Positions 1 to 21,726 of a stretch of DNA of 64,000 nt are shown in pieces. Each line of letters starts with the position of its first letter. Position 1 is the stretch's first letter. Where the stretch lies: contig JBHGBC010000002.1 of assembly GCA_041946805.1 (NCBI GenBank), positions 82,354 through 146,353 of the forward strand. Reading direction: 5' to 3'. Below the pieces are notes generated by a model. That model was given only the letters and a program-made list of their open reading frames with translations, was not told where the DNA came from and searched no databases. Made by a program: the position numbers and the translations under genes. The DNA is from a bacterium. GTDB lineage: Bacteria > Hinthialibacterota > Hinthialibacteria > Hinthialibacterales > Hinthialibacteraceae.

Positions 1-107
1 ATATTTTCCTGAAGAACGGTTTCAGGGATGGGTGGGCTACGCTTCGCTTGGAGCCCACCCTATATTCCCTGTGCAACGCGCCCACTGTCTTCATGTATCA
101 CAGCGCA

Positions 108-150
108 ACCCTCCCCTCTTCCCCTGGGAGAGGGCCAGGGTGAGGGAATT
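108..150. repeat. REP-like GC-rich palindromic element, copy A (ccctcccctcttcccctgggagagggccagggtgaggg)
   Basis: Imperfect hairpin. Shares the core GGGAGAGGGCYAGGGTGAGGG with copies at 19459, 36168 (reverse orientation), 62288 and 31681. Intergenic. Generates the spurious ORF 32..265 (…PLFPWERARVREF…). Confidence 0.7.
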
Positions 151-159
151 CTGTAGGGT

Positions 160-185
160 GGGTGGATTGAAGCGAAATCCCCCAT
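160..185. repeat. Second hairpin repeat family, copy 1 (gggtggattgaagcgaaatccccc)
   Basis: Near-identical to 2244..2273 (gggtggattgagcctcgcgaaatccaccc). Both lie immediately 3' of minus-strand genes. 9-bp stem gggtggatt/aatccaccc. Confidence 0.55.
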
Positions 186-309
186 CCGGATCTGATTCAG
201 ACAAAAACCTGCCCTTTTCTCTCTCAGGAGCCCCGGAGGGGCATTCCTATTTTAGCCAGGGGTAAAACCCCTGGAACATTGAAATATCTTGACATCCGAT
301 CAGGCGGGA

Positions 310-2100
310 TTACTCGGATGGGGTATACACATTCCGGCCGCTATCCAGCAGAGTGCTGATCGTGGGAGACACGGTGATGTTCACCCCGTGTTTTTCACAG
401 ATCCTCTGAATCAACGGAAAATGCTCCGACTGGGTCATCCATTCCCAGGTGATGAGCAGGTCGGGATGATACACTTCGAACAACGATTCCAGGTCCGGAA
501 TCGTCCCGATGATGTTGAATCCGGAGATCGAGGAATAGCGCTTCCACTCGATGTCCGTCACGATCCCCAGAATCTTCCAGGCGTCGTTGTTGATCCGCTC
601 CAGGGTGCTGAGCAGGAGTTCGGCCTCGAGGCCCACGCCCAGCAGGATCACCCGCCGGGGGGCCGGCTGCGCGGCGGCGTTGAACTGGGGCAGGCACCAC
701 AAGAGCGCCATGACCGCCGACAACACCGAGAAGACCACCGTGTCCAGGATGATGGAAAGACGGGAGTAGTTCGGATCCTGCCGGATCAAGTACACCAGTA
801 GAATCAGGCCCATCCCGATCATGGAAACATGCGTGATACGGAACAGTTCCCGCCCGAAGAACGAACGCCAGGTCTTGGCCCGGGGAGGCCAGAGAAACAG
901 CGCCAAGGCCGCGCGGATGGCGAAAGTGAACAGGGAGACGGCCCACACTTTGGGAATCAAGAGGGCGATGTTCAACTGGCTCAGCCGGATCATGTGCGAG
1001 ATCCAGAACGAAAAAAAACCGATCAATCCGTACAGCGCCAGTATAACTAAATGAGTCAGCGCGCCGCTCAGGGACTGGAAAAATCCGGTGGCCAGAAACG
1101 CGTCGTGGATGGCGATGTATCCGATGCGCGCCGCCGTCAGGAAGGCCGGCAGCAGCAGCGCATCGGTGATGTGGGCGCTCAAGTACAAATCCCGCTCCTC
1201 GAAGAACATCAAGACCGTGGTCAACGCCAGCGAGGAATAGAGCGAAGCCTTGATGAGGGTCAACAAATAGCCGGCGGTGATCGCGGAGGAAATCGGATAC
1301 CGGTGCAGCCCGAACAGGAAAAACACCGCGGGCCGGATCAACAGGCTGAGCCAGACCACCTTGCGCAGGCTGGGGAACACGTCGGGCGGTATGCCCATCT
1401 GGAACACCAGGTGAAAAGCCAGCACCAGGCTGAATCCCGAGACGATCGTGTCGGAGAGCAGCATGAACGCGTGGGTCAGATGGACCAGCAGCCATTGCCA
1501 GGTGATGGTCTTGGTGAACAATGCTCCGGCGACTCCGATGAAGATCTTCAGATCGAGCGCCAGGCTCTTCCCCGCGATGTATTCGATCTCGTGGTCCAGT
1601 TTTTCCGGCAGGATGTGTTCAACGTAATACTTCTCGTGGTCCACGCAGCCGGGCGGGTAGAGGTCGGTTTCATGGGGATGCTTGATCTGGCTGTATCCGA
1701 TCACCCCGGGGCGGACGGAGAGTACCTGTTTCCACTTTTCAGGATAGAAGGCGGTGAACTTGGGGATCTCGGGACGTGGGCCAATCAGGGCCATGTGCCC
1801 GAGGAGGATGTTGACGATCTGGGGCAGCTCGTCCAGCTTGAAGCGTTCCAGGAACCGGCCGATGCGCGTGAGGCGCACATCATGCCGCGTGGTGATGCCC
1901 TTGCCGTCCGGAGGGACGTAGGAAGGCATTTTGCGGAACTTGATCATCCAAAAATACCGGCCGTGGATCCCCACACGGCGCTGAAAAAAGAGCGGCCATC
2001 CAGGGGAATCCAGCACGATAGCGGCCATCAGCACCAGAAACAGCGGGCTGAGAAGGAGCAGCGCCAACAACGCCAGTATGAATTCCAACCACCGCGGCAT
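310..2100 (-). CDS. Phosphoglycosyl transferase with permuted architecture. N-terminal PglC/WbaP-type monotopic sugar-transferase catalytic domain, then polytopic membrane region, then C-terminal CoA-binding/Rossmann-like domain
   Basis: N-terminus has a reentrant helix (FILALLALLLLSPLFLVLMAAIVL) then DSPGWPLFFQRRVGIHGRYFWMIKFRKM…ELPQIVNILLGHMALIGPRP…, the hallmark of bacterial sugar transferases (PF02397). It ends with DHEIEYIAGKSLALDLKIFI. The C-terminal 400 aa are multi-TM plus RRVILLGVGLEAELL…ILGIVTDIEW…, resembling the N-terminal TM+CoA-binding module of large WbaP-type PGTs. Domain order is inverted relative to WbaP. Confidence 0.8.
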   Translation of the reverse strand: MPRWLEFILALLALLLLSPLFLVLMAAIVLDSPGWPLFFQRRVGIHGRYFWMIKFRKMPSYVPPDGKGITTRHDVRLTRIGRFLERFKLDELPQIVNILLGHMALIGPRPEIPKFTAFYPEKWKQVLSVRPGVIGYSQIKHPHETDLYPPGCVDHEKYYVEHILPEKLDHEIEYIAGKSLALDLKIFIGVAGALFTKTITWQWLLVHLTHAFMLLSDTIVSGFSLVLAFHLVFQMGIPPDVFPSLRKVVWLSLLIRPAVFFLFGLHRYPISSAITAGYLLTLIKASLYSSLALTTVLMFFEERDLYLSAHITDALLLPAFLTAARIGYIAIHDAFLATGFFQSLSGALTHLVILALYGLIGFFSFWISHMIRLSQLNIALLIPKVWAVSLFTFAIRAALALFLWPPRAKTWRSFFGRELFRITHVSMIGMGLILLVYLIRQDPNYSRLSIILDTVVFSVLSAVMALLWCLPQFNAAAQPAPRRVILLGVGLEAELLLSTLERINNDAWKILGIVTDIEWKRYSSISGFNIIGTIPDLESLFEVYHPDLLITWEWMTQSEHFPLIQRICEKHGVNITVSPTISTLLDSGRNVYTPSE

Positions 2101-2282: not shown

Positions 2283-3575
2283 TCACCCCCTCCCCGCCTT
2301 CCCGGACGCGATCCCGGCGGCGGAGCAGACCATCGCCAGGGTGGTCAAGCCGTCGGTGGCGACAGTCATCCAGGCGGCCCCAATGAAGCCCCAGGCGGGG
2401 ATCAGTATGGCATTGCCGGTGATGTTGATCAACAGTCCGGCCAGATTGATGCCCATATAGTGGCGGATGCCCCGCCGTTCCTCGTTGACCAGAAAATAGC
2501 CGAAGGCGTTGCCCAGAAAAGTGATGGGCAGGGTCCAGGCCATCACTTGCAGGGCATGGGTGGTCTGCTGGTACGCATCCGGATAGAGCCAAGCCGTGAT
2601 CCGGCCGCTTTCGGCCTGTAACAACAAGGCCAGGAACAATCCCAGGGCGCCCAGCAGCAGCCCGACGGCCGCGACGAAGCGGAAGGCCGCCGGGCGGGAG
2701 CGGTTGATCCGGCGGCTGATGGTGGGAGCCAGGGCCTGGTAGACGGAGAGGAAAATCATGCTCAGAAGGCCGGCCAGCCGGAACGCCCCGCTGTAGTAGG
2801 CGATCGAGGAGACTGGGCCAAGCCATTCCAGCATGATCATGTCGATCCGGGCGTATAAAATGAAAAAAACGGAACCCAGCGTCAGGGGGTAAAAATCGCG
2901 CGCCAGTTCGGCCAGGGACATGGGCGCGGCCGGCGCGCCGGGGGGCATCGCCGCGTAAATCCGCCGGACGCGCCGGACATACAAGACATGGTTAAGCACC
3001 CAGCGCAAAAGCAGGACCAGCGAAGCACCGGCCAGCGGGAACGGGAGATACAGCACCAGCGCCGCGCCCAGCCCCAGCACCGCTAGGTTGCACAGCACGT
3101 TGACGCTCATCGCCCACTGCACCTGGTTGAGCGAGATGAAAAGCGACTCGTACACGCTGCAGGTGCTTTGAAAATAGATCGCGGCGCAGAACATCCCCAG
3201 CACGCCGGCGCGGGTGAAAGTGAAGGATTCGAGGATGACCGCGGCGAAGAGCAGCGTGGCCGCCACGAGGACGATCTGGTCCAGCAGAGCCATCACCCCC
3301 GGCCCCTGATCGCGCCACCATTCCTGGCGGCGGGAGTTCTCACGCAGGACGATCAGGGCCAAGCCGGGAACCGCCACGCCGGCCCCGATCTCCAGGCAGG
3401 CGCGTCCCAGCTCGAACAGGCCGAGTTCGTCGGATGTGAACGTGTTGATCAGCAACAGGAAAAAAAGGAATTGCACCGCCCCGTTCGCGATCTTTTGTCC
3501 CGCGATGAAGGCGCTGTTGCTCAAGACACGGAAAATTTCTTTCATATCGAGAAGGCCGCGCGGGGCCCTGGACAC
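2283..3575 (-). CDS. Polysaccharide/O-antigen flippase (Wzx-like, MOP/polysaccharide biosynthesis protein family)
   Basis: 430 aa with ~12 predicted TM helices. Typical Polysacc_synt N-terminus (VLSNSAFIAGQKIANGAVQFLFFLLLINTFTSDELG). Gene context between the PGT and a nucleotidyltransferase. Confidence 0.7.
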   Translation of the reverse strand: MSRAPRGLLDMKEIFRVLSNSAFIAGQKIANGAVQFLFFLLLINTFTSDELGLFELGRACLEIGAGVAVPGLALIVLRENSRRQEWWRDQGPGVMALLDQIVLVAATLLFAAVILESFTFTRAGVLGMFCAAIYFQSTCSVYESLFISLNQVQWAMSVNVLCNLAVLGLGAALVLYLPFPLAGASLVLLLRWVLNHVLYVRRVRRIYAAMPPGAPAAPMSLAELARDFYPLTLGSVFFILYARIDMIMLEWLGPVSSIAYYSGAFRLAGLLSMIFLSVYQALAPTISRRINRSRPAAFRFVAAVGLLLGALGLFLALLLQAESGRITAWLYPDAYQQTTHALQVMAWTLPITFLGNAFGYFLVNEERRGIRHYMGINLAGLLINITGNAILIPAWGFIGAAWMTVATDGLTTLAMVCSAAGIASGKAGRG

Positions 3576-3587
3576 TTCCCTGCCGGA

Positions 3588-4298
3588 TCAAGCCGGGGGC
3601 CAATATCGGTCCCGGTGGGCCTCGAATTCCTCGATGGCGAGGTTCAGTTCATCCGGGGTTCCCATGTCGAGCCAATGGCCCGTAAAGGGGTAGACCGCAA
3701 CCCGTTCGCCGGCCGCCAACAGGCGGTGCATCAGGTGATCGAAGCCGAACGGTTCGCCGCGGGGAATGTAGTCGAGGATCCGCGGCTCGAAGATGTAGAC
3801 GCCCATGCTCACGTCGTAGTCGAACTCGGGTTTCTCCTGGAATCCGGTGATCCGCCGGTCCGCGCCGTAAGTGATCACTCCCAGCGCCAGGCGGACATGC
3901 CGCTTGCAGGTCCCCACCGTGGCGATCGCGCCGCCGCGGCGGTGGGTTTCATACAGATCGCGGTAATCGAGATCGGTCAACAGGTCGCCGTTCATGACCA
4001 GGAACGATTCATTCAGGCCGGAAATCAGGGTCAGGGGTGCGATGGTATTGAGGGGTTTGTCCTCCAACGAATAATCGACGCGGATGCCCAGGCGGGAGCC
4101 GTCGCCCATCACGGCCATGATCAGTTCCGCGTGGTAGCCGACCGAGATGGTGATGTGATCGAAGCCCCGCCAGGCCAGCTGGCGGATGACGACTTCCAGG
4201 ATGGGCTTATCCCCCAGGGGAACGAGGGGCTTGGGCAGGACCAGGGTGTAGGGAAAGAGGCGCTGGCCCCGGCCGCCCGCCATGATGATCGCGCGCAT
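3588..4298 (-). CDS. Sugar-1-phosphate nucleotidyltransferase (NTP_transferase family)
   Basis: N-terminal MRAIIMAGGRGQRLFPYTLVLPKPLVPLGDKPILEVVIRQL, the G-rich nucleotide-binding loop of glucose/mannose-1-P nucleotidyltransferases. 236 aa. Confidence 0.8.
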   Translation of the reverse strand: MRAIIMAGGRGQRLFPYTLVLPKPLVPLGDKPILEVVIRQLAWRGFDHITISVGYHAELIMAVMGDGSRLGIRVDYSLEDKPLNTIAPLTLISGLNESFLVMNGDLLTDLDYRDLYETHRRGGAIATVGTCKRHVRLALGVITYGADRRITGFQEKPEFDYDVSMGVYIFEPRILDYIPRGEPFGFDHLMHRLLAAGERVAVYPFTGHWLDMGTPDELNLAIEEFEAHRDRYWPPA

Positions 4299-4526
4299 GA
4301 ATCCCGCTTCCTTTCACGAGGTATGATACGTTCTTGGTTCCCTCCACCACCGGTCGGATTTGCCCAAAGGCCCAGCCAAGAACGGGTGAAGTATAAGGGC
4401 CGGGCGGGGATAAATCCACCCGGAGCGATGGCAGAGGAGGAATCACCACCCGGGTATGGAAAGTTGTCTGTATCTGAATGGCCGGCGAGAAGCGCGGAGA
4501 TTCCTAACGAATTCCTCCCCGAGGGG

Positions 4527-4550
4527 AATCCATGTGTATAGACATGGATT
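4527..4550. promoter_or_regulatory. Perfect 9-bp inverted repeat with 6-bp spacer (aatccatgt-gtatag-acatggatt) in a divergent promoter region
   Basis: Seen directly. Lies between the divergently transcribed nucleotidyltransferase operon (-) and the antitoxin-like/VapC pair (+). Candidate operator for a dimeric regulator (possibly the TA complex itself). Confidence 0.4.
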
Positions 4551-4741
4551 TTAACCTGCGGTAAAAAAAACCTTACCAGCAATGTGTTGATCATCCCACG
4601 ATTGATAAGACTGATTTGTAAATTAATTTTCTGTAAAAAATCACTTGACAATTCCTAGAACCGGATGGGGAAATAAAAAGGAGAGGAATTGAAATAGGGG
4701 TGCTGGATAGATTCAAAGCGGGTACGCCAAGGAGGTTCCTG

Positions 4742-5728
4742 ATGAGCAATAAACAACTCCCGCTCTTGATGATTGAATTGGAAGGGCCGGGTATCGGGCC
4801 GGGACGCATGACCGTGTCGCAACTACTCTGTTTGCTGGAAAACTTTGGCAAAGTACTGTTACGAACCGGCCAGGTTCTCGCCGGGGAGAGCCATAGCACC
4901 CGCAAAGGCCCCAAAACCAAGCGGCTCAAGGAATCGATTGACCTCCAACTCGTTCAACTGACACATGGCAGCCCTACGACCGTGCTTGGTTTCGATCGTG
5001 GAGTGCAGATCGATTTTCCAGAAATGGATGATGGTGAATATATTCTTGAAACCACGCTCCAAGGACTCACCGCAATTCAAAATCCGGATCATCCCTTACC
5101 TGCCGGTGTGGACCGGGGAGTTTTACTCGCTTGGCGAGAGTTAGGCCTCCTCTTTCGCAAAAGATGCAATCGAATTTTATTTTCTCTAAATAACCGCGCA
5201 ATTCCGTTACGGATTAAATATACCCCCGCGGGATTCGAACAGATTCAGAAGCGTATTCGAGGTCCCGAACTCAACCTTCGTACAGTCGAGGGCAGGCTTT
5301 TGATGACGGATTTCAAAGAATACGGCACCCGTTGCCGGATTCACCCTCCGATCGGCGATCCCATTATTTGCCTGTTTGATGAAGACCAGAAAGAGGCCGT
5401 TTTGGAAAATATTCTCCAATATGTGCGGATCGAGGGAGAAGCCCAAGAAGACTCGATTTCCAGAAAAATTACAAATATAAAGATCCGCGATATTGAAAGA
5501 ATAGAGGATATGGAGGTCGATGAGAAAAACATCCCAACGGGTGAACCCTTACCGTTCGATTTCTGGAAATCCTGGACGATCGAAGAACTCGCGGAAGCGC
5601 AAGGAGTCATTCCCGTTACGGATGTGACAGCCCTTTTGGGAACATGGCCCGGGGAAGTGGACGATGGTTTTGAGGAATTTATCCAAGACTTGAGGCGGCA
5701 AAATTCGATTGGAGAAAATAACCCGTAA
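4742..5728 (+). CDS. Hypothetical 328-aa protein with a C-terminal antitoxin-like tail (DUF2281/VapB-like motif …LLGTWPGEVDDGFEEFIQDLRR) and a large N-terminal domain of unknown function
   Basis: ATG at 4742 is preceded by a strong SD (aaggagg, 7 nt spacer). The ORF track's 4700 start is GTG without SD. The stop overlaps the VapC start (TAATG at 5725-5730). The C-terminal ~40 aa resemble the toxin-binding tails of small antitoxins partnered with PIN toxins. The N-terminal ~280 aa have no similarity I can recognise. Lies in a low-GC islet. Confidence 0.65.
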   Translation: MSNKQLPLLMIELEGPGIGPGRMTVSQLLCLLENFGKVLLRTGQVLAGESHSTRKGPKTKRLKESIDLQLVQLTHGSPTTVLGFDRGVQIDFPEMDDGEYILETTLQGLTAIQNPDHPLPAGVDRGVLLAWRELGLLFRKRCNRILFSLNNRAIPLRIKYTPAGFEQIQKRIRGPELNLRTVEGRLLMTDFKEYGTRCRIHPPIGDPIICLFDEDQKEAVLENILQYVRIEGEAQEDSISRKITNIKIRDIERIEDMEVDEKNIPTGEPLPFDFWKSWTIEELAEAQGVIPVTDVTALLGTWPGEVDDGFEEFIQDLRRQNSIGENNP

Positions 5729-6128
5729 TGGTAGCGAAACTCATCTTGGATACCAACATTGTATCGTACCTCATGAAGAGGCACTCTTTCGGTCAAAAAT
5801 ATTTGCCACACCTCTTGGGTAAGCTTTTGGCGATCAGCTTCATCACGGTGGGGGAACTTTATGTCGGGGCGGAAAAAGACAAATGGGGAGAAAGAAAGCG
5901 CCTTCATCTCCAGCCATGCTCAAAAACTATGTGGTGATTCCTTATGATGATGGCATCGCGAAGGAGTTTGCGCGAATTTTTGTCAATCGGATGCGGTTGG
6001 GTAAGCCCATTTCATTTTCAGACGCCTGGATATCGGCCTGTGCTGTACGGCATGATGTACCTTTGGTTACACACAATGCGATACACTTTGAGTCCATACC
6101 AGGATTACGGATTATTACTGAGCCATAA
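5728..6128 (+). pseudogene. vapC: VapC-type PIN-domain toxin, split by a +1/-1 frameshift near 5910-5920 (frames 5728..5937 and 5883..6128)
   Basis: N-terminal part MVAKLILDTNIVSYLMKR…ITVGELYVGAEKDKWGERKRLHLQP, with the conserved first acidic residue (LDTN). C-terminal part in another frame: MLKNYVVIPYDDGIAKEFARIFVNRMRLGKPISFSDAWISACAVRHDVPLVTHNAIHFESIPGLRI, the canonical PIN VLPFD / D-x-x-IAA / LVT-N motifs. The shift falls in an a/g-rich stretch (ggaaaaagacaaatggggagaaagaaagcgcc). Either a real pseudogene or a sequencing indel. Confidence 0.65.
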
Positions 6129-6260
6129 AGCTCAAGCTCATGAACTGTTCACTTGAATGAAGTCCATAACGCTACTGAAAGAAATATGGCATTGAAAATC
6201 GGACTATCTAAATTTCCTACCTCTTTTTAGCCCGATTATCGAATTGCATTTAAGAAAATT

Positions 6261-10640: not shown

Positions 10641-11286
10641 GAGTCTCTCTCTTTCGTCAAACGACGGTTTCCCGGGCTGAGGTACCACGAAGGGTCTGAG
10701 TCAGATTTCACATAATAACTCCTAATTATAGTAGCGCAAATCGCATACCATAAGGAGAGGATTGGCGTTCAGGGGAAATTCCCTGAAAAAAAGCGATTGA
10801 CCTGCGGATACGAGGCATCGGGTGTTCAAGGACCAACAATTGGTTAGAAAAAATCAGCAGAAGCATCCAGCGCGCAGTATGGATGAAGCCCGGCCGGCTG
10901 CTCTTCCATCGAGCTGACCGGGAAGATTAACTCCCAATCCCCGTACTTCCCAGGAAAGGAATACAATGCGGGAATTTTACAGGGGTGAACTCATGCGTAC
11001 AGCCGCTTGCCGAAGAGGATATAGAAAGCCTTTTTCAACATCCGATGCCAACTACCCGGTGGAAACGTTTTTCCAAAGGGACCGTGGATTATCCTTGTCT
11101 ATGCCAGGCCCTTCTGGTATATTCCGTCGGACGTAACCAGAAACCGAAATGCCGCGCCCCGGTTCCGCCGCCATTTCCGGGACGCGCCAGGCGGTTCCGG
11201 CCCCGATGCGGTTTGCCCGTGGAATCCATTCGTCCCACCGGTTGAGGTCAAATGTCCCCACTCCGGGGATCCAGCATGAAAACGCG

Positions 11287-12411
11287 ATGAATTGGCACCA
11301 CTATCTCGCCCTCTTCTTCCAAGGCTTTCTTTTCTCGGTGATTATGACTCCCGTTATGCGGCGCCTGGCGCCCTCCTTGGGTTTCCTCGATCAGCCCGGC
11401 GAACGCAAGGTCCACAGCCATCCCAAACCCCTGCTCGGCGGCGCGGCGATCTTTCTCTCGTATGTGCTCCTGATCGGCATCGACCTGGCCGTATTGCGCT
11501 GGATTTTCGTGCAGGACATCCGCGGGACGGGCTGGCTCGCCAACCAGCTCAATCTGCTGGCCTGGAACGCGGCGGGTGTCACCCGGGTGATCCACCAGTT
11601 GGCGGGCCTGCTGGCCGGGGGAACGGTCCTGTTCCTCGTGGGGCTGGTGGACGACCGGATCGGGCTGAAACCCTTCGTGAAACTGGCCGCCCAGACCCTC
11701 GCCGCCGTGATCCTTTACCTGGCCAACGTGCAGATCGCCTTGTTCATCTATCACCCGATGATCAATTTTCTCATCACCCTTGCCTGGATCGTCCTCATCA
11801 CCAACTCCTTCAACCTGCTGGACAACATGGACGGCCTCTCGGGGGGAGTGGCCATGATCTGCCTGATCCTCATCGGCATCTCCACGCAGTTGGTCAACAA
11901 GCAGATCTTCATGACCTCCGCGTCGTTCGCCCTGGCGGGCTGCATTGCTGGATTTTTGCGGTATAACCTGCATCCCTCCACGATCTTCATGGGCGATGCG
12001 GGTTCATTGTTCATCGGCTTCACGGTGGCGGCCCTGACCATTCAAGCCACGTACTATCAATACGGCACCGAAACCGCCACCGCCTGGGCGGTGGTGATGC
12101 CCTTCGTTATCCTGGCGGTGCCCATTTTCGATACGCTGTCGGTGATCTGCATCCGGCTGCGCAATCACAAGCCGGTCTTCGTAGGCGACAAAAACCATTT
12201 TTCCCACCGCCTCGTGGCCCTGGGCATGAGCCAGCGGCGGGCGGTGTTCTTTATTCATCTGATCACCTTGTGCGAGGGCAGCGCGGCGCTCATCCTGGCC
12301 ATCATCACCGAGTCGTTCGGGGCCTATATCGTGTTGACCCAGACGGTGCTCTTCTTCATCATCATCGCCATGCTGGAACGGGTGCGCAATCACTCCCAAC
12401 CGTCTTCTTGA
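11287..12411 (+). CDS. Glycosyltransferase family 4 polyprenyl-phosphate N-acetylhexosamine-1-phosphate transferase (WecA/WbpL/MraY-like)
   Basis: MNWHHYLALFFQ… with …DNMDGLSGG…, the MraY/WecA signature (NxxNxxDGIDGL-like), and 10-11 TM helices. Start chosen at ATG 11287, where the conserved N-terminus begins. The track's 11149 start adds an unconserved Arg/Pro-rich extension. Confidence 0.8.
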   Translation: MNWHHYLALFFQGFLFSVIMTPVMRRLAPSLGFLDQPGERKVHSHPKPLLGGAAIFLSYVLLIGIDLAVLRWIFVQDIRGTGWLANQLNLLAWNAAGVTRVIHQLAGLLAGGTVLFLVGLVDDRIGLKPFVKLAAQTLAAVILYLANVQIALFIYHPMINFLITLAWIVLITNSFNLLDNMDGLSGGVAMICLILIGISTQLVNKQIFMTSASFALAGCIAGFLRYNLHPSTIFMGDAGSLFIGFTVAALTIQATYYQYGTETATAWAVVMPFVILAVPIFDTLSVICIRLRNHKPVFVGDKNHFSHRLVALGMSQRRAVFFIHLITLCEGSAALILAIITESFGAYIVLTQTVLFFIIIAMLERVRNHSQPSS

Positions 12412-19692: not shown

Positions 19693-19966
19693 GATATAGG
19701 CCATCAAAGACGGTGAAGAGGAGTAGTAGGCGTTCCCACGGGATGGAGAGAGCCGGTGGTTGGTGCGAACCGGTTCCCGCGAATGCCGAACTCGCCTCGG
19801 AGTCGCCTCCGCGAAGCCCGGAGATCCGGGTGGTAGTCGAGGCCGGGACGCGACCGTGACATCGCGGAAACGAGGGCGGCGCCAACGGCCGCCGAACCAG
19901 GGTGGTACCACGGGGAAACCGAAAACGAACCTCGTCCCTGACACGGGACGGGGTTTTTTGTTTTTA
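19693..19966 (+). promoter_or_regulatory. T-box riboswitch leader (Leu specifier CUC) with intrinsic terminator, upstream of leuA
   Basis: AGAGAG box and GGUGG distal-loop motif. Candidate specifier GAA-CUC-G (Leu codon + purine). T-box sequence ccaGGGTGGTACCACGG (consensus AGGGUGGNACCGCG; UGGU matches tRNA-Leu discriminator A). Overlapping terminator cctcgtccc-tgacac-gggacgggg + TTTTTTGTTTTT (19929..19966). Confidence 0.7.
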
Positions 19967-20033: not shown

Positions 20034-20189
20034 GTGTTGGGTTTAGGCAGCGAAGAGAGCGACCTGAGCGACCTTAGCGACTTGGGTTGGAAGCCGAAAA
20101 GCCGAATGGGAACGCTAAGCACAATCAATCCGCCGGCGCGGGGCACGGATCACCGCCCGGCCAGAACGGAGAAACGCAATCATGACTGA
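20034..20189 (+). other. Possible upstream ORF (~51 codons, GTG start, SD ggaaggagg) overlapping the leuA start (ATGACTGA). Contains 3x tandem 9-nt repeat agcgacctg/agcgacctt/agcgacttg (SDLSDLSDL)
   Basis: Strong SD 8 nt before GTG 20034. Stop TGA overlaps the leuA ATG. Tandem repeat at 20058..20085. Coding status unverified. Confidence 0.3.
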
Positions 20190-21726
20190 GAAAATCATAA
20201 TCTTCGATACGACGCTGCGGGACGGGGAGCAATCGCCCGGCTTCAGCATGAACATGAAGGAAAAAATCGAGTTCGCGCAGCAGCTGAAGCGGCTGAACGT
20301 GGACATCATCGAAGCCGGATTCCCGATTTCGTCGCCCGGGGATTTCGACTCGGTGAAGGCCATTGCCCAACAGGTGGAAGGGCCGCAGATCTGCGGGCTG
20401 GCGCGGGCGCTGGAGAAGGACATCGACCGCTGCTGGGAAGCGGTGCAGTACTCGAAACGGCCGCGCATCCACACCTTCATCGCCACCAGCCAGGTGCACA
20501 TGGAGAAGAAACTCAAGAAAACGCGGAAAGAGGTGCGCGACCTGGCGGTGCAGGCGGTCCAGCATGCCCGGAAATACACGGACAACGTGGAGTTTTCGAC
20601 GGAAGACGCCGCGCGCACGGAGCGGGATTACATCTGCGAGGTGGTGGAGGCGGCGATCGACGCGGGAGCCACGACCATCAACATTCCCGACACGGTGGGG
20701 TATTCCAATCCGTGGGAATTCGGCGATCTCATCGCCTATATTTTCGAGAAGGTCCCCAACGTGCATCAGGCCATCATCAGCGTGCACTGCCACAACGATC
20801 TGGGGCTGGCGGTGGCCAATTCGCTGGCGGCCATCCGCAACGGGGCGCGGCAGGTGGAATGCACCATCAACGGGATCGGCGAGCGGGCCGGCAACGCCTC
20901 GCTGGAAGAGACCGTGATGAACATCAAGACCCGGCAGGATTTCTTCCCGTTCCACACGGACGTGAACACGGAGCAGATTTATCCCGCCAGCCGCATGCTG
21001 ACGCGCTTCACGGGCATCGCGGTGCAGCCGAACAAGGCCATCGTGGGGGCGAACGCCTTCGCGCACGAGGCGGGCATCCACCAGGATGGGGTGCTCAAGG
21101 AGCGGACGACGTACGAGATCATGCGGCCGTCGGCGGTGGGGTGGACGGGCAGTTCGATGGTGCTGGGCAAGCATTCGGGGCGGCACGCGTTCGTCGCGCG
21201 GCTCTCCGAGCTGGGCGTCACCCTGGAGGGGCCGGCGCTGGAGAACGCCTTCAACGCCTTCAAGGAACTGGCCGACCGCAAGAAGACCGTTTTCGACGAG
21301 GACCTGATCGCCATCGTGGACGAGCAGACGCGGAGCGTCGAGCAGGCGCGCTTTGTGCTGCAAGACCTGTTCATCAAGATCGGGCCGGACATGAAGCCGT
21401 CCGCGACGGTGCGCATCCAGGCCAACGGGGAAACGCTCGAAGGCAGCGGGACGGGCGACGGAGCGCTGGACGCGGCGTTTTCGATCATCAAGCAGCTGAC
21501 CGGCATGCAGGAAGCGGTGCTGGTGGATTACAGCGTCGGAGCGGTCACCGTGGGAACGGACGCGCAAGGCTCGGCGCGGGTGGTGCTCAAGAAAAATAAC
21601 CGGGAAGCGGTGGGCCGCGGGACGGACACGGACGTGATCCGGGCCAGCGTGAAGGCGTTCCTCAACGCGGTCAACCGCCTGTGCACGGCCGCCGAGCGGG
21701 AGAAGGAAGTTACGCCGTCGGTGTGA
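20182..21726 (+). CDS. leuA: 2-isopropylmalate synthase
   Basis: [24 protein letters not shown]…[16 protein letters not shown]… conserved throughout. 514 aa with C-terminal LeuA dimerisation/regulatory domain. Confidence 0.95.

What the first reader, a model, noticed from the sequence alone, without database searches (positions are those of the whole stretch)
310..2100. Domain-permuted phosphoglycosyl transferase: catalytic PglC-like domain first, WbaP-type TM+CoA-binding module last
Large WbaP-family initiating transferases normally run N-terminal TM bundle, then CoA-binding-like domain, then C-terminal catalytic domain. Here a complete monotopic catalytic domain (reentrant helix + …KFRKM…PQIVNILLGHMALIGPRP… ending …DLKIFI) is at the N-terminus. 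It is followed by ~6 TM helices and a C-terminal Rossmann/CoA-binding-like domain (RRVILLGVGLEAELL…ILGIVTD…). This is a circular permutation or fusion with altered topology, and it is not the textbook arrangement. It begins an EPS operon (with wzx and a nucleotidyltransferase).
Basis: partly seen in the sequence, partly recalled or inferred. Interest (0 to 1): 0.55.

Follow-up and report, generated by a model that had tools for sequence, protein, structure and literature searches.

The report
Sugar-phosphate transferase with accessory module last
This gene encodes a glycan-initiating enzyme whose catalytic domain comes first and whose membrane-bundle plus nucleotide-binding accessory module comes last (the reverse of the textbook order, with the bundle doubled to eight helices); the reversed order is real and conserved, but it is shared by hundreds of unremarked metagenomic proteins and probably arose by capture of a dehydratase-type module, not by circular permutation.

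Summary
Window 310..2100 (-) is one intact 596-aa ORF with three parts:
- a complete monotopic PGT catalytic domain (aa 1-198; Pfam Bac_transf, 153 bits);
- eight TM helices (aa 201-474), not about six;
- a C-terminal Rossmann domain (aa 482-592).

The last four TMs plus the Rossmann domain are homologous to the 4TMH+DUF (PF13727) module of Lg-PGTs (hhalign 98.6%, E 1e-15). For the isolated C-module model, WbaP 8T53 is the top PDB hit.

It is not an assembly artefact. About 20 full-length homologs (43-92% identity) exist, and one ortholog recurs in four independent assemblies.

It is also not unique. More than 100 clusters of about 467-aa Cat-4TM-DUF proteins exist, plus about 840-aa Cat-4TM-DUF-dehydratase fusions. 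The same module also follows polytopic PGTs and a GT2.

Three results favour capture of a PglF-type module over permutation of an Lg-PGT, without proving it:
- the catalytic-domain tree gives 93% bootstrap for all Cat-first classes against Lg-PGTs;
- an exhaustive search returned 29 PglF-like hits against 3 Lg-PGT hits;
- the module profile hits 3NKL but no WbaP chain.

The extra four TMs look like a bundle duplication and are rare. The PGT is the last gene of its three-gene operon, not the first.

Verdict: a new variant of a known kind, of moderate interest.

The parts
310..2100 (-). Whole gene: a 596-aa monotopic phosphoglycosyl transferase with a C-terminal 8TM+DUF module
   Evidence: ORF. 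20 full-length homologs at 43-92% identity, all starting MPRWLE-like. AF2 mean pLDDT 84.8.
1507..2100 (-). Catalytic monoPGT domain (aa 1-198), PglC-like
   Evidence: Pfam PF02397 at aa 3-191, 153.5 bits. phmmer to PglC 8g1n E 5e-19 and WbaP 8t53 E 6e-16. Foldseek to PglC E 8e-9 with TM-score 0.72 on the target.
2008..2094 (-). Re-entrant membrane helix (aa 3-31) with a Ser18-Pro19 break
   Evidence: AF2 helix 3-31. P19 is at least 90% conserved in the family. Aligns to the PglC N-terminal helix.
1828..1833 (-). Asp90-Glu91 of KLDELPQ, the predicted catalytic dyad. GPRPE (aa 107-111) is at 1768..1782.
   Evidence: D90/E91 are at least 90% conserved and G107-E111 are invariant. They align with the sLDELPQ / GPRP motifs of PglC and WbaP.
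1087..1500 (-). First four-TM bundle (TM1-4, aa 201-338)
   Evidence: AF2 helices and hydropathy. Aligns in register with the 4TM bundle of the short Cat-first class (hhalign E 2.6e-6) and weakly with the canonical Lg-PGT bundle (E 6e-4).
679..1071 (-). Second four-TM bundle (TM5-8, aa 344-474). It is the extra segment relative to the 467-aa class and a probable duplicate of TM1-4.
   Evidence: The short class aligns to aa 1-327 and 466-595 only. TM1-4 against TM5-8 gives hhalign P 2.6e-4 over 109 columns in register, while reversed controls give P >= 0.15. It is contiguous with the DUF in the match to canonical N-modules.
325..657 (-). C-terminal Rossmann-like DUF (aa 482-592; PF13727/CoA_binding_3-type; GVGxExE in place of GxGxxG)
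   Evidence: AF2 beta-alpha-beta fold. hhalign to the Lg-PGT DUF E 2e-12 and to the PglF-type DUF E 1e-9. 3NKL by sequence profile E 1e-10 and by structure rmsd 2.9 A.
2283..3575 (-). Upstream co-directional gene: Wzx/MATE-like polysaccharide flippase (430 aa)
   Evidence: Pfam Polysacc_synt 43 bits and MatE 40 bits. Same position in the ortholog loci L001-L004.
3588..4298 (-). First gene of the trio: sugar-1-phosphate nucleotidylyltransferase (236 aa)
   Evidence: Pfam NTP_transferase 139.8 bits. NCBIfam best hits are below equivalog cutoffs. Conserved in L001-L004.

Best explanation
SHOWN. The gene encodes an intact monotopic phosphoglycosyl transferase. Its PglC-like catalytic domain has a re-entrant helix with a Ser-Pro break, the Asp90-Glu91 dyad and the GPRPE motif, and it sits at the N-terminus. 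It is followed by eight TM helices and a C-terminal Rossmann-like domain. The last four TMs plus that domain are homologous to the '4TMH + DUF (PF13727)' accessory module that lies N-terminal in Lg-PGTs such as WbaP and in PglF/CapD-like dehydratases.

INFERRED FUNCTION.
- The nucleotide sugar is plausibly made by the nucleotidylyltransferase encoded two genes upstream.
- The lipid-linked product is then handled by the Wzx-like flippase encoded between them.
- The even TM number keeps the DUF cytoplasmic, where it can cap the bundle as in WbaP.
- By analogy with WbaP, the DUF would act as a nucleotide-sensing, regulatory or scaffolding domain.
- The WbaP DUF-to-catalytic beta-hairpin that makes the swapped dimer cannot exist in this order, so any oligomerisation must differ.

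INFERRED ORIGIN.
- The protein belongs to a clade of 'catalytic-domain-first' PGTs that also contains the abundant Cat-4TM-DUF proteins (about 467 aa) and the Cat-4TM-DUF-SDR proteins (a small PGT fused to a whole PglF-like dehydratase).
- The most likely history is fusion of a small PGT to a neighbouring PglF-type gene or module, then loss of the dehydratase domain.
- In this rare sub-lineage, a tandem duplication of the four-helix bundle (4 to 8 TM) followed.
- The result mimics a circular permutation of an Lg-PGT without being one.
For: Architecture and homology.

Conservation, not artefact.

Topology: 8 helices; positive-inside 8.6 against 3.8 K+R.

A populous Cat-first class: 107 of 115 new 90%-identity clusters are Cat-first, 443-522 aa. 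Their C-module matches the canonical N-module at E 8e-28.

Link to PglF-type fusions:
- P0045 has Bac_transf 3-188, CoA_binding_3 317-428 and Polysacc_synt_2 474-756.
- Most of the 120 hits listed carry both Bac_transf and Polysacc_synt_2 at about 830-870 aa.
- The catalytic-domain NJ split {8TM family + short classes + fusions} against {Lg-PGT + others} has 93/100 bootstrap support. The SDR-less classes never group to the exclusion of the fusions (0/100).
- DUF identities: short classes to PglF-type or fusions 27-34%, against 20-21% to Lg-PGT.
- Single-sequence hhalign medians: PglF 57 against Lg-PGT 29 for the query family, and 115 against 59 for the short class.
- Exhaustive phmmer with aa 200-596 found 29 PglF-like hits and 3 canonical Lg-PGT hits.
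- The module profile hits 3NKL (E 1e-10) but no WbaP chain at E <= 10.

Module promiscuity: it lies C-terminal to Glycos_transf_4 polyPGTs (with or without an SDR) and to a GT2.

Duplication.

Role of the DUF in WbaP (uridine-nucleotide binding, UMP inhibition, hairpin-swapped dimer, shared with PglF): eLife 2024, PMC10942596.
Against: Origin:
- Profile-profile scores of the query's C-module are better against the (deeper) Lg-PGT profile (E 1e-15) than against the PglF-type (4e-10) or fusion (1e-8) profiles. Its TM bundles match only the Lg-PGT profile appreciably.
- The best individual Lg-PGT modules score as high as PglF-type ones.
- The DUF tree is unresolved, and the query family's DUF is 16-19% identical to every class.
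- Trees were simple NJ on samples biased toward the queries used.
- No dehydratase remnant was found in or next to the query gene.
- The SDR next to the S4b genes is GDP-mannose-dehydratase type, not PglF type.

Duplication: support is modest (P about 3e-4 and 16% identity between TM segments).

Function:
- No experiment was done.
- The DUF's glycine motif is GVGxExE, not GxGxxG, so nucleotide binding is uncertain.
- Substrate sugar is unknown.
- The NCBIfam hits of the nucleotidylyltransferase are below equivalog cutoffs.
Confidence: 0.6

Rival explanations
1. True circular permutation. An Lg-PGT gene (4TM-DUF-Cat) duplicated in tandem and fused in frame, then lost the first 4TM-DUF and the last Cat. 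That gave Cat-4TM-DUF, and the PglF-type fusions arose later by adding an SDR.
For: The three modules are exactly those of an Lg-PGT in circularly permuted order. The query's C-module and TM bundles score best against the Lg-PGT N-module profile (E 1e-15 against 4e-10 and 1e-8; TM5-8 7e-5 against 0.1). The short class's TM bundle scores 1.6e-11 against Lg-PGT and 1.6e-5 against PglF-type. The top NCBIfam hits of the catalytic domain are Lg-PGT families. WbaP is the top structural hit of the C-module.
Against: No duplication intermediate was seen among hundreds of retrieved relatives. The catalytic domains group with the PglF-type fusions and not with Lg-PGTs (93%). The exhaustive search gave 29 PglF-like hits and 3 Lg-PGT hits. 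The module profile hits 3NKL but no WbaP sequence. The same module is appended to polytopic PGTs and a GT2, where permutation cannot be the explanation. The Lg-PGT profile was much deeper (51 sequences against 8), which inflates its scores (one search compared).
Confidence: 0.25
2. The 8-TM region is not just an accessory bundle. It has an activity of its own, such as lipid-carrier binding or recycling, or a flippase- or polymerase-like function, and this makes the protein bifunctional.
For: The region is long (about 275 aa) and has invariant polar or charged residues inside or next to helices (D217, R256-P257, R303-D304, H310, D313, R325, H350, R396, W404-P405-P406, R447, D453). Divergent family members sit next to Wzy-like genes.
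Against: No Pfam or NCBIfam family matches aa 200-430. Foldseek gave only low-probability transporter matches. Both halves align in register to the ordinary 4TMH bundle of Lg-PGTs and the short class. A dedicated Wzx-like gene is adjacent.
Confidence: 0.1
3. Artefact: two adjacent genes (a small PGT, and a membrane protein with a Rossmann domain) were joined by a sequencing or assembly error.
For: None was found.
Against: The same continuous ORF is present in about 20 homologs down to 43% identity, with no gap at the junction. The 85%-identical ortholog is identical in four independent assemblies from different samples. It also occurs in GTDB representative MAGs. AF2 models the junction with high confidence (pLDDT 79-91 over aa 180-220).
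Confidence: 0.01

Closest known systems
Large monotopic PGTs (Lg-PGT; WbaP, WcaJ, CpsE; PDB 8T53)
   Same: Same catalytic domain family (PF02397) with the same motifs. Same kinds of accessory parts: a four-TM-helix bundle and a PF13727 Rossmann-like DUF, homologous at hhalign E 1e-15, with WbaP as the top structural hit of the module. Probably the same chemistry and cytoplasmic orientation.
   Different: The order is reversed: the accessory module is C-terminal. There are 8 TM helices, not 4. There is no DUF-to-catalytic linker beta-hairpin, which is the dimer swap element in WbaP (PMC10942596). The protein fails the full-length NCBIfam Lg-PGT cutoffs (213.8 against 295.55 bits). Its catalytic domain groups outside sampled Lg-PGTs.
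Cat-4TM-DUF proteins of about 467-505 aa (for example P0022 and P0164 from Candidatus Binatia; annotated only as 'sugar transferase')
   Same: Same domain order. Collinear alignment over Cat+TM1-4 (37% identity) and over the DUF. The nearest outgroup by catalytic domain.
   Different: They have 4 TM helices, not 8. Their DUF passes Pfam's PF13727 cutoff and has a normal GxGxxGE motif. They are abundant, with more than 100 clusters at 90% identity, and sit in large Wzx/Wzy loci.
Bifunctional PGT-PglF/CapD-like fusions (Cat-4TM-DUF-Polysacc_synt_2, about 830-870 aa; for example P0045)
   Same: Catalytic domain first, followed by 4TM+DUF. The catalytic domains fall in the same bootstrap-supported group (93%).
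   Different: They carry a C-terminal PglF-type SDR dehydratase that the query lacks. About a quarter of those sampled have degenerate PGT motifs (IDRIPE, GPAAE/GPAPE), whereas the query's motifs are intact.
PglF / Cap5D / WbpM-type membrane dehydratases (N-terminal 4TMH+DUF; DUF structure 3NKL)
   Same: Share the TM+DUF module. The query module profile hits 3NKL at E 1e-10, with structural rmsd 2.9 A. They are the most frequent class among remote hits (29 of the classifiable hits).
   Different: They have no PGT domain. The module is N-terminal and is followed by an SDR dehydratase.
Small monoPGT PglC (PDB 8G1N/8E37)
   Same: Best solved match to aa 1-198 (E 5e-19 by sequence; TM-score 0.72-0.75 on the target). 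Same re-entrant helix and catalytic motifs.
   Different: PglC is the catalytic core only (about 200 aa) and is monomeric, with no accessory module.

Membership tests
Monotopic PGT superfamily (Pfam PF02397 Bac_transf) | Sequence match to the family model above the curated threshold | tested here: met
   153.5 bits against cutoff 27, aa 3-191 covering model positions 2-174 of 179.
Monotopic PGT superfamily (Pfam PF02397 Bac_transf) | N-terminal re-entrant membrane helix with a Ser-Pro break | tested here: met
   Hydrophobic helix aa 3-31 with S18-P19. P19 is at least 90% conserved. Re-entrance itself is inferred from PglC, not tested.
Monotopic PGT superfamily (Pfam PF02397 Bac_transf) | Asp-Glu catalytic dyad and the downstream PRP motif | tested here: met
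   KLD90E91LPQ and G107PRPE111 align with PglC and WbaP. They are invariant or nearly so in the family.
Monotopic PGT superfamily (Pfam PF02397 Bac_transf) | Phosphosugar transfer to polyprenol phosphate | not testable with these tools
   Requires an enzyme assay.
Large monoPGT (Lg-PGT) as defined by O'Toole, Imperiali and Allen (quoted in PMC10942596 and PMC11626204) | Presence of a four-TM-helix bundle and the PF13727 DUF | tested here: met
   hhalign 98.6%, E 1e-15 to Lg-PGT N-modules. WbaP is the top structural hit. Pfam's own cutoff is missed in the query (16.6 against 25 bits) but met in family members such as P0006.
Large monoPGT (Lg-PGT) as defined by O'Toole, Imperiali and Allen (quoted in PMC10942596 and PMC11626204) | [quoted passage not shown] | tested here: not met
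   The catalytic domain is aa 1-198, the TM region 201-474 and the DUF 482-592.
Large monoPGT (Lg-PGT) as defined by O'Toole, Imperiali and Allen (quoted in PMC10942596 and PMC11626204) | Beta-hairpin between the DUF and the catalytic domain that mediates a domain-swapped dimer | tested here: not met
   The DUF is followed only by helix 581-592 and a disordered 4-residue tail, and no hairpin is modelled. The oligomeric state itself is not testable here.
Large monoPGT (Lg-PGT) as defined by O'Toole, Imperiali and Allen (quoted in PMC10942596 and PMC11626204) | Full-length match to curated Lg-PGT models (TIGR03025, TIGR03023, TIGR03022) | tested here: not met
   213.8 against 295.55 bits, 188.6 against 410.75 and 131.4 against 403. 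The matches are split into 2-3 stretches.
Bifunctional monoPGT (Bi-PGT) | A second catalytic domain fused to the PGT core | tested here: not met
   No further Pfam or NCBIfam family was found. The C-terminal domain is the non-catalytic DUF type.
PglF/CapD-like dehydratase (Pfam PF02719 Polysacc_synt_2) | SDR dehydratase domain | tested here: not met
   No PF02719 hit. The protein ends 4 residues after the DUF. Nothing coding was recognised by eye in the 309 nt downstream.
Circularly permuted protein in the strict evolutionary sense | Descent from the unpermuted form (duplication-and-truncation intermediates, or modules nesting within the unpermuted family) | tested here: inconclusive
   No intermediates were found. 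The catalytic-domain tree and the remote-hit census point to PglF-type fusions. Profile scores slightly favour Lg-PGT. The DUF tree is unresolved.

The most novel reading that the evidence does not exclude
The 4TMH+DUF unit may be an autonomous, portable regulatory or scaffolding cassette of polyprenol-phosphate glycan pathways. It can be attached to whichever enzyme starts or feeds the pathway: monoPGT at either end, polytopic PGT, GT2 or PglF dehydratase.

In the query's lineage the bundle was duplicated. One chain may therefore carry an intramolecular copy of the two-bundle 'stalk' that WbaP builds by homodimerisation. That would give a monomeric, single-active-site equivalent of the WbaP dimer that no longer needs the hairpin swap.

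If so, these natural variants would show that covalent order and the hairpin swap are dispensable for DUF-mediated control. They would also give a direct handle on why PGTs and PglF-like dehydratases share this module.
Probability: 0.2. Interest if true: 0.65.

Novelty: new variant of a known kind. Interest (0 to 1): 0.42.

Why it matters
What the N-terminal 4TMH+DUF module of Lg-PGTs does is an acknowledged open question, as is why PglF-like dehydratases share it. The eLife 2024 paper (PMC10942596) calls the sharing 'puzzling'.

This locus, and the families found from it, show three things:
- the module works in nature when placed after the catalytic domain;
- it occurs after polytopic PGTs and a GT2 as well;
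- it exists in chains that contain both a PGT and a PglF-type dehydratase.

That argues the module is a self-contained unit whose function does not depend on the WbaP-type linker hairpin.

It also supplies ready-made constructs for testing nucleotide sensing, dimerisation and membrane scaffolding: Cat-4TM-DUF, Cat-8TM-DUF and Cat-4TM-DUF-SDR.

In practice, these proteins fit none of the Sm/Lg/Bi-PGT classes and are annotated only as 'sugar transferase'. Classification schemes and family models that assume the N-terminal order mis-score them.

Tried and rejected
1. Assembly fusion. Rejected: the ORF is intact in about 20 homologs and in four independent assemblies.

2. A dehydratase domain encoded just downstream of the query (a split PglF). 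Nothing coding was recognised by eye in window 1-309, which was not translated or searched. In ortholog loci the next gene is a convergent Wza-like exporter.

3. 'Fission of a PGT-PglF fusion' in the S4b class. A 331-aa SDR lies 17 nt downstream in two loci. It is only 26% identical to the fusion-class SDR and is GDP-mannose-dehydratase/RmlB type (230 bits) and not Polysacc_synt_2 (66 bits). The idea was dropped.

4. KFRxM-DELPQ spacing as a marker of Sm-type against Lg-type catalytic cores. Not discriminating: 36-37 residues in nearly all classes.

5. DUF-domain NJ tree. Unresolved: all key splits had at most about 50% bootstrap support.

6. Profile-profile comparison with unequal profile depths gave the opposite ranking to single-sequence scoring. 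Neither is treated as decisive.

7. Foldseek of the full-length model found only the catalytic domain of WbaP. A separate model of the C-module was needed to see the TM+DUF match.

8. The afdb50 structure library was unavailable, so no census of AlphaFold DB architectures was possible.

9. Promoter and terminator scans near the gene were at background level.

10. Literature. No paper in the held library mentions circular permutation of PGTs or PF13727 placed C-terminal to a transferase. The key SSN paper (O'Toole 2021, PNAS) and the 2021 review are not held, so prior description there cannot be excluded.
Full report
**1. What is in the sequence**

Two genes lie upstream on the same strand. One is a Wzx/MATE-like flippase (2283..3575; Pfam Polysacc_synt and MatE). 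The other is a sugar-1-phosphate nucleotidylyltransferase (3588..4298; NTP_transferase, 139.8 bits). Transcription therefore runs NTP-transferase, then flippase, then PGT. The PGT is the last of the three, not the first. The 309 nt between its stop codon and the window edge show no obvious coding sequence by eye. Promoter and terminator scans were at background level.

**2. Domain content**

- Pfam places Bac_transf (PF02397) at aa 3-191 (E 6e-45).
- NCBIfam's full-length Lg-PGT models match that N-terminal stretch with their C-terminal positions, for example TIGR03025 positions 259-441 of 445. All stay below their curated cutoffs.
- Against solved structures, aa 3-143 align to PglC (E 5e-19) and to the C-terminal catalytic domain of WbaP (E 6e-16).
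- The KFRKM, KLD90-E91LPQ and GPRPE motifs are all in register.

Hydropathy analysis and an AlphaFold2 model (mean pLDDT 84.8) show three parts:
- the catalytic domain with an N-terminal helix (aa 3-31) carrying S18-P19;
- eight long helices (201-232, 242-262, 276-300, 307-338, 344-373, 378-402, 411-440, 447-474);
- a beta-alpha-beta Rossmann-like domain (482-592).

So there are eight TM helices, not about six. Because the number is even, the catalytic domain and the Rossmann domain lie on the same side of the membrane. Loop charges agree with both being cytoplasmic: family-mean K+R is 8.6 in the predicted inside loops and 3.8 in the outside loops.

**3. Is the C-terminal part really the WbaP-type module?**

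In the query itself, the Pfam CoA_binding_3 hit is sub-threshold (16.6 against 25 bits). Four other lines establish the homology.
- A profile of the family's aa 200-596 aligns to a profile of canonical Lg-PGT N-terminal modules at 98.6% probability and E 1e-15. The alignment covers 230 columns spanning TM5-8 and the Rossmann domain.
- Family members and relatives pass Pfam's cutoff (P0006 28.6 bits, P0022 59.4 bits).
- A profile of the module hits the solved DUF domain of a PglF/WbpM-type dehydratase (3NKL, E 1e-10).
- An AF2 model of aa 337-596 alone (pLDDT 85.2) has WbaP 8t53_A as its top PDB match (E 3e-6, 244 columns), although the rmsd is high because of domain orientation. Its Rossmann part superposes on 3NKL at 2.9 A.

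**4. Not an artefact**

A database search found about 20 full-length homologs of 587-611 aa at 43-92% identity. They have the same start and no gap at the catalytic/TM junction. The 85%-identical ortholog is encoded intact in four independent assemblies from different samples, always in the same three-gene arrangement and followed by a convergent Wza-like exporter. GTDB representative genomes carrying it are MAGs labelled Candidatus Omnitrophota, and one homolog is labelled Candidatus Hinthialibacter. More divergent members (43-56% identity) sit in other neighbourhoods, isolated or beside Wzy-like genes. The architecture is thus conserved independently of the operon.

**5. The arrangement is not unique**

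- The next-best relatives (P0021-P0028, P0030, P0033; 441-548 aa) are also catalytic-domain-first, followed by four TM helices and a PF13727 domain.
- A search with a profile of the C-module returned more than 100 further clusters at 90% identity. Of these, 107 of 115 are Cat-first proteins of 443-522 aa, and the rest are fragments or motif variants. They come from Binatia, Acidobacteria and other MAGs and are annotated only as 'sugar transferase'.
- Their C-module matches the canonical N-module at 99.8% probability and E 8e-28.
- P0045 has Bac_transf (3-188), CoA_binding_3 (317-428) and Polysacc_synt_2 (474-756). It is a small PGT fused to a complete PglF/CapD-like dehydratase. A search with its non-PGT part showed that such proteins of about 830-870 aa are numerous.

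**6. The extra four helices**

The 467-aa class aligns collinearly with query aa 1-327 (catalytic domain plus TM1-4; 37% identity) and again with aa 466-595. That leaves about 140 residues, roughly TM5-8, as extra. Three comparisons bear on their origin:
- TM1-4 resembles the short class's bundle (E 2.6e-6).
- TM5-8 is the half that is contiguous with the DUF in matches to canonical modules.
- The two halves align to each other in register over 109 columns (P 2.6e-4, 16% identity), whereas reversed-sequence controls give P >= 0.15.

A tandem duplication of the four-helix bundle is the simplest reading, but the statistical support is modest.

An exhaustive HMMER search with aa 200-596 against 1.84 billion cluster representatives found only 6 hits at E <= 1e-10, several of them fragments. 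The core 8-TM family is therefore rare. A few more distant clusters (P0362, P0412, P0396, P0389) also have about 8 TM segments, and two of them align across the whole 8TM+DUF region.

**7. Circular permutation or module capture?**

The eLife 2024 WbaP paper notes that the 4TMH+DUF module is shared with PglF-like dehydratases and calls this puzzling (PMC10942596). That allows two histories:
- (H1) permutation of an Lg-PGT by duplication and truncation;
- (H2) fusion of a small PGT to a PglF-type gene or module, followed by loss of the dehydratase.

Evidence for H2:
- In a bootstrapped NJ tree of catalytic domains, the split {8-TM family + both short classes + PglF-type fusions} against {canonical Lg-PGTs + others} has 93/100 support. 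The SDR-less classes never group to the exclusion of the fusions (0/100).
- DUF identities of the short classes are 27-34% to PglF-type or fusion DUFs and 20-21% to Lg-PGT DUFs.
- Scored one sequence at a time, PglF-type modules have about twice the median hhalign score of Lg-PGT modules.
- Among classifiable hits in the exhaustive search, 29 are PglF-like and 3 are canonical Lg-PGTs.
- The module profile hits 3NKL but no WbaP chain at E <= 10.
- The same TM+DUF module lies C-terminal to polytopic PGTs of the Glycos_transf_4 family (P0376, P0400, P0441; P0390 also carries the start of a PglF-type SDR) and to a GT2 (P0420). Permutation of an Lg-PGT cannot explain those cases.

Evidence for H1:
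- Profile-profile scores of the query's module are somewhat better against the Lg-PGT profile (E 1e-15) than against the PglF-type (4e-10) or fusion (1e-8) profiles, and its TM bundles match only the Lg-PGT profile. That profile is much deeper, however (51 sequences against 8).
- The best individual Lg-PGT modules score as high as PglF-type ones.

Other limits on this question:
- The DUF tree is unresolved, and the query family's DUF is about equally distant (16-19%) from all classes.
- No duplication intermediates were seen.
- Two further ideas failed. The SDR adjacent to S4b genes is not PglF type, and motif spacing is uninformative.

I put H2 at about 0.6 and H1 at about 0.25.

**8. How it most likely works**

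Shown: all catalytic hallmarks of a monoPGT are intact and conserved.

Inferred from the PglC/WbaP literature:
- The enzyme sits in the cytoplasmic leaflet through its re-entrant helix.
- It transfers a sugar-1-phosphate from an NDP-sugar to polyprenol phosphate.
- The adjacent nucleotidylyltransferase plausibly supplies the donor, and the Wzx-like protein flips the product.

In WbaP the DUF caps the TM bundle, binds uridine nucleotides, is implicated in UMP feedback inhibition, and dimerises through a beta-hairpin located between the DUF and the catalytic domain (PMC10942596). Here the DUF is terminal and is followed only by a helix and a 4-residue tail. That hairpin swap is therefore absent, and any regulation or oligomerisation must work through a different geometry. 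The DUF's glycine motif is GVGxExE, not GxGxxG, so nucleotide binding is uncertain.

One speculative reading cannot be excluded. The duplicated bundle may replace the two-bundle stalk of the WbaP dimer within a single chain.

**9. Comparison with known classes, and novelty**

[quoted passage not shown] This protein is a member of the monoPGT superfamily, but it fails one defining feature of each subclass:
- it is not core-only;
- its accessory domains are not N-terminal;
- it has no second catalytic domain.

I found no description of the reversed order in the held literature. The 2021 SSN paper, which is the work most likely to mention it, is not held. The AlphaFold DB library was also unavailable.

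My verdict is a new variant of a known kind. The Cat-first order is common but unremarked, and the 8-TM form is rare. Interest is moderate (0.42). The chemistry is ordinary, but the family offers natural constructs bearing directly on the open question of what the 4TMH+DUF module does.

Noticed in passing
P0376, P0400, P0441 (609-627 aa), P0390 (717 aa), P0420 (637 aa); proteins: The TM+CoA_binding_3 module also lies C-terminal to polytopic PGTs (Glycos_transf_4, MraY/WecA family). P0390 additionally carries the start of a Polysacc_synt_2 dehydratase. The module also follows a GT2 glycosyltransferase. This suggests a general pattern of initiating transferase, then 4TM-DUF, with or without an SDR.
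   Followed up: partly
P0045 and relatives (Cat-4TM-DUF-SDR fusions): About a quarter of the sampled PGT-PglF fusions have degenerate PGT motifs: IDRIPE in place of LDELPQ, and GPAAE/GPAPE in place of GPRPE. Their PGT domain may be catalytically dead and retained as a membrane anchor or scaffold.
   Followed up: partly
window 19704-19942 (+), upstream of 20182-21726 (+): A full-length T-box leader (Rfam RF00230, 104 bits against a gathering score of 93) precedes a 2-isopropylmalate/homocitrate synthase-like gene (HMGL-like + LeuA_dimer). T-boxes are mostly known from Firmicutes, whereas this genome is a candidate-phylum MAG.
   Followed up: no
window 11149-12411 (+): A second, unrelated initiating enzyme lies about 9 kb away: a polytopic PGT of the Glycos_transf_4 (MraY/WecA) family, 420 aa.
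   Followed up: no
window 4300-6250 (GC 44-50% against about 60% in the flanks): A low-GC island lies next to the operon. It holds a 342-aa ORF with no Pfam match (4700-5728). This is followed immediately by a PIN-domain toxin gene that appears split by a frameshift into two ORFs (5728-5937 and 5883-6128).
   Followed up: no
L006 1821-2816 and L007 4003-4998: In two loci of the 494-548-aa Cat-4TM-DUF subclass, a soluble GDP-mannose-dehydratase/RmlB-type SDR starts 17 nt after the PGT. An NTP-transferase follows, and in L006 a DegT aminotransferase after that. This is a conserved deoxy/amino-sugar cassette tied to that subclass.
   Followed up: partly
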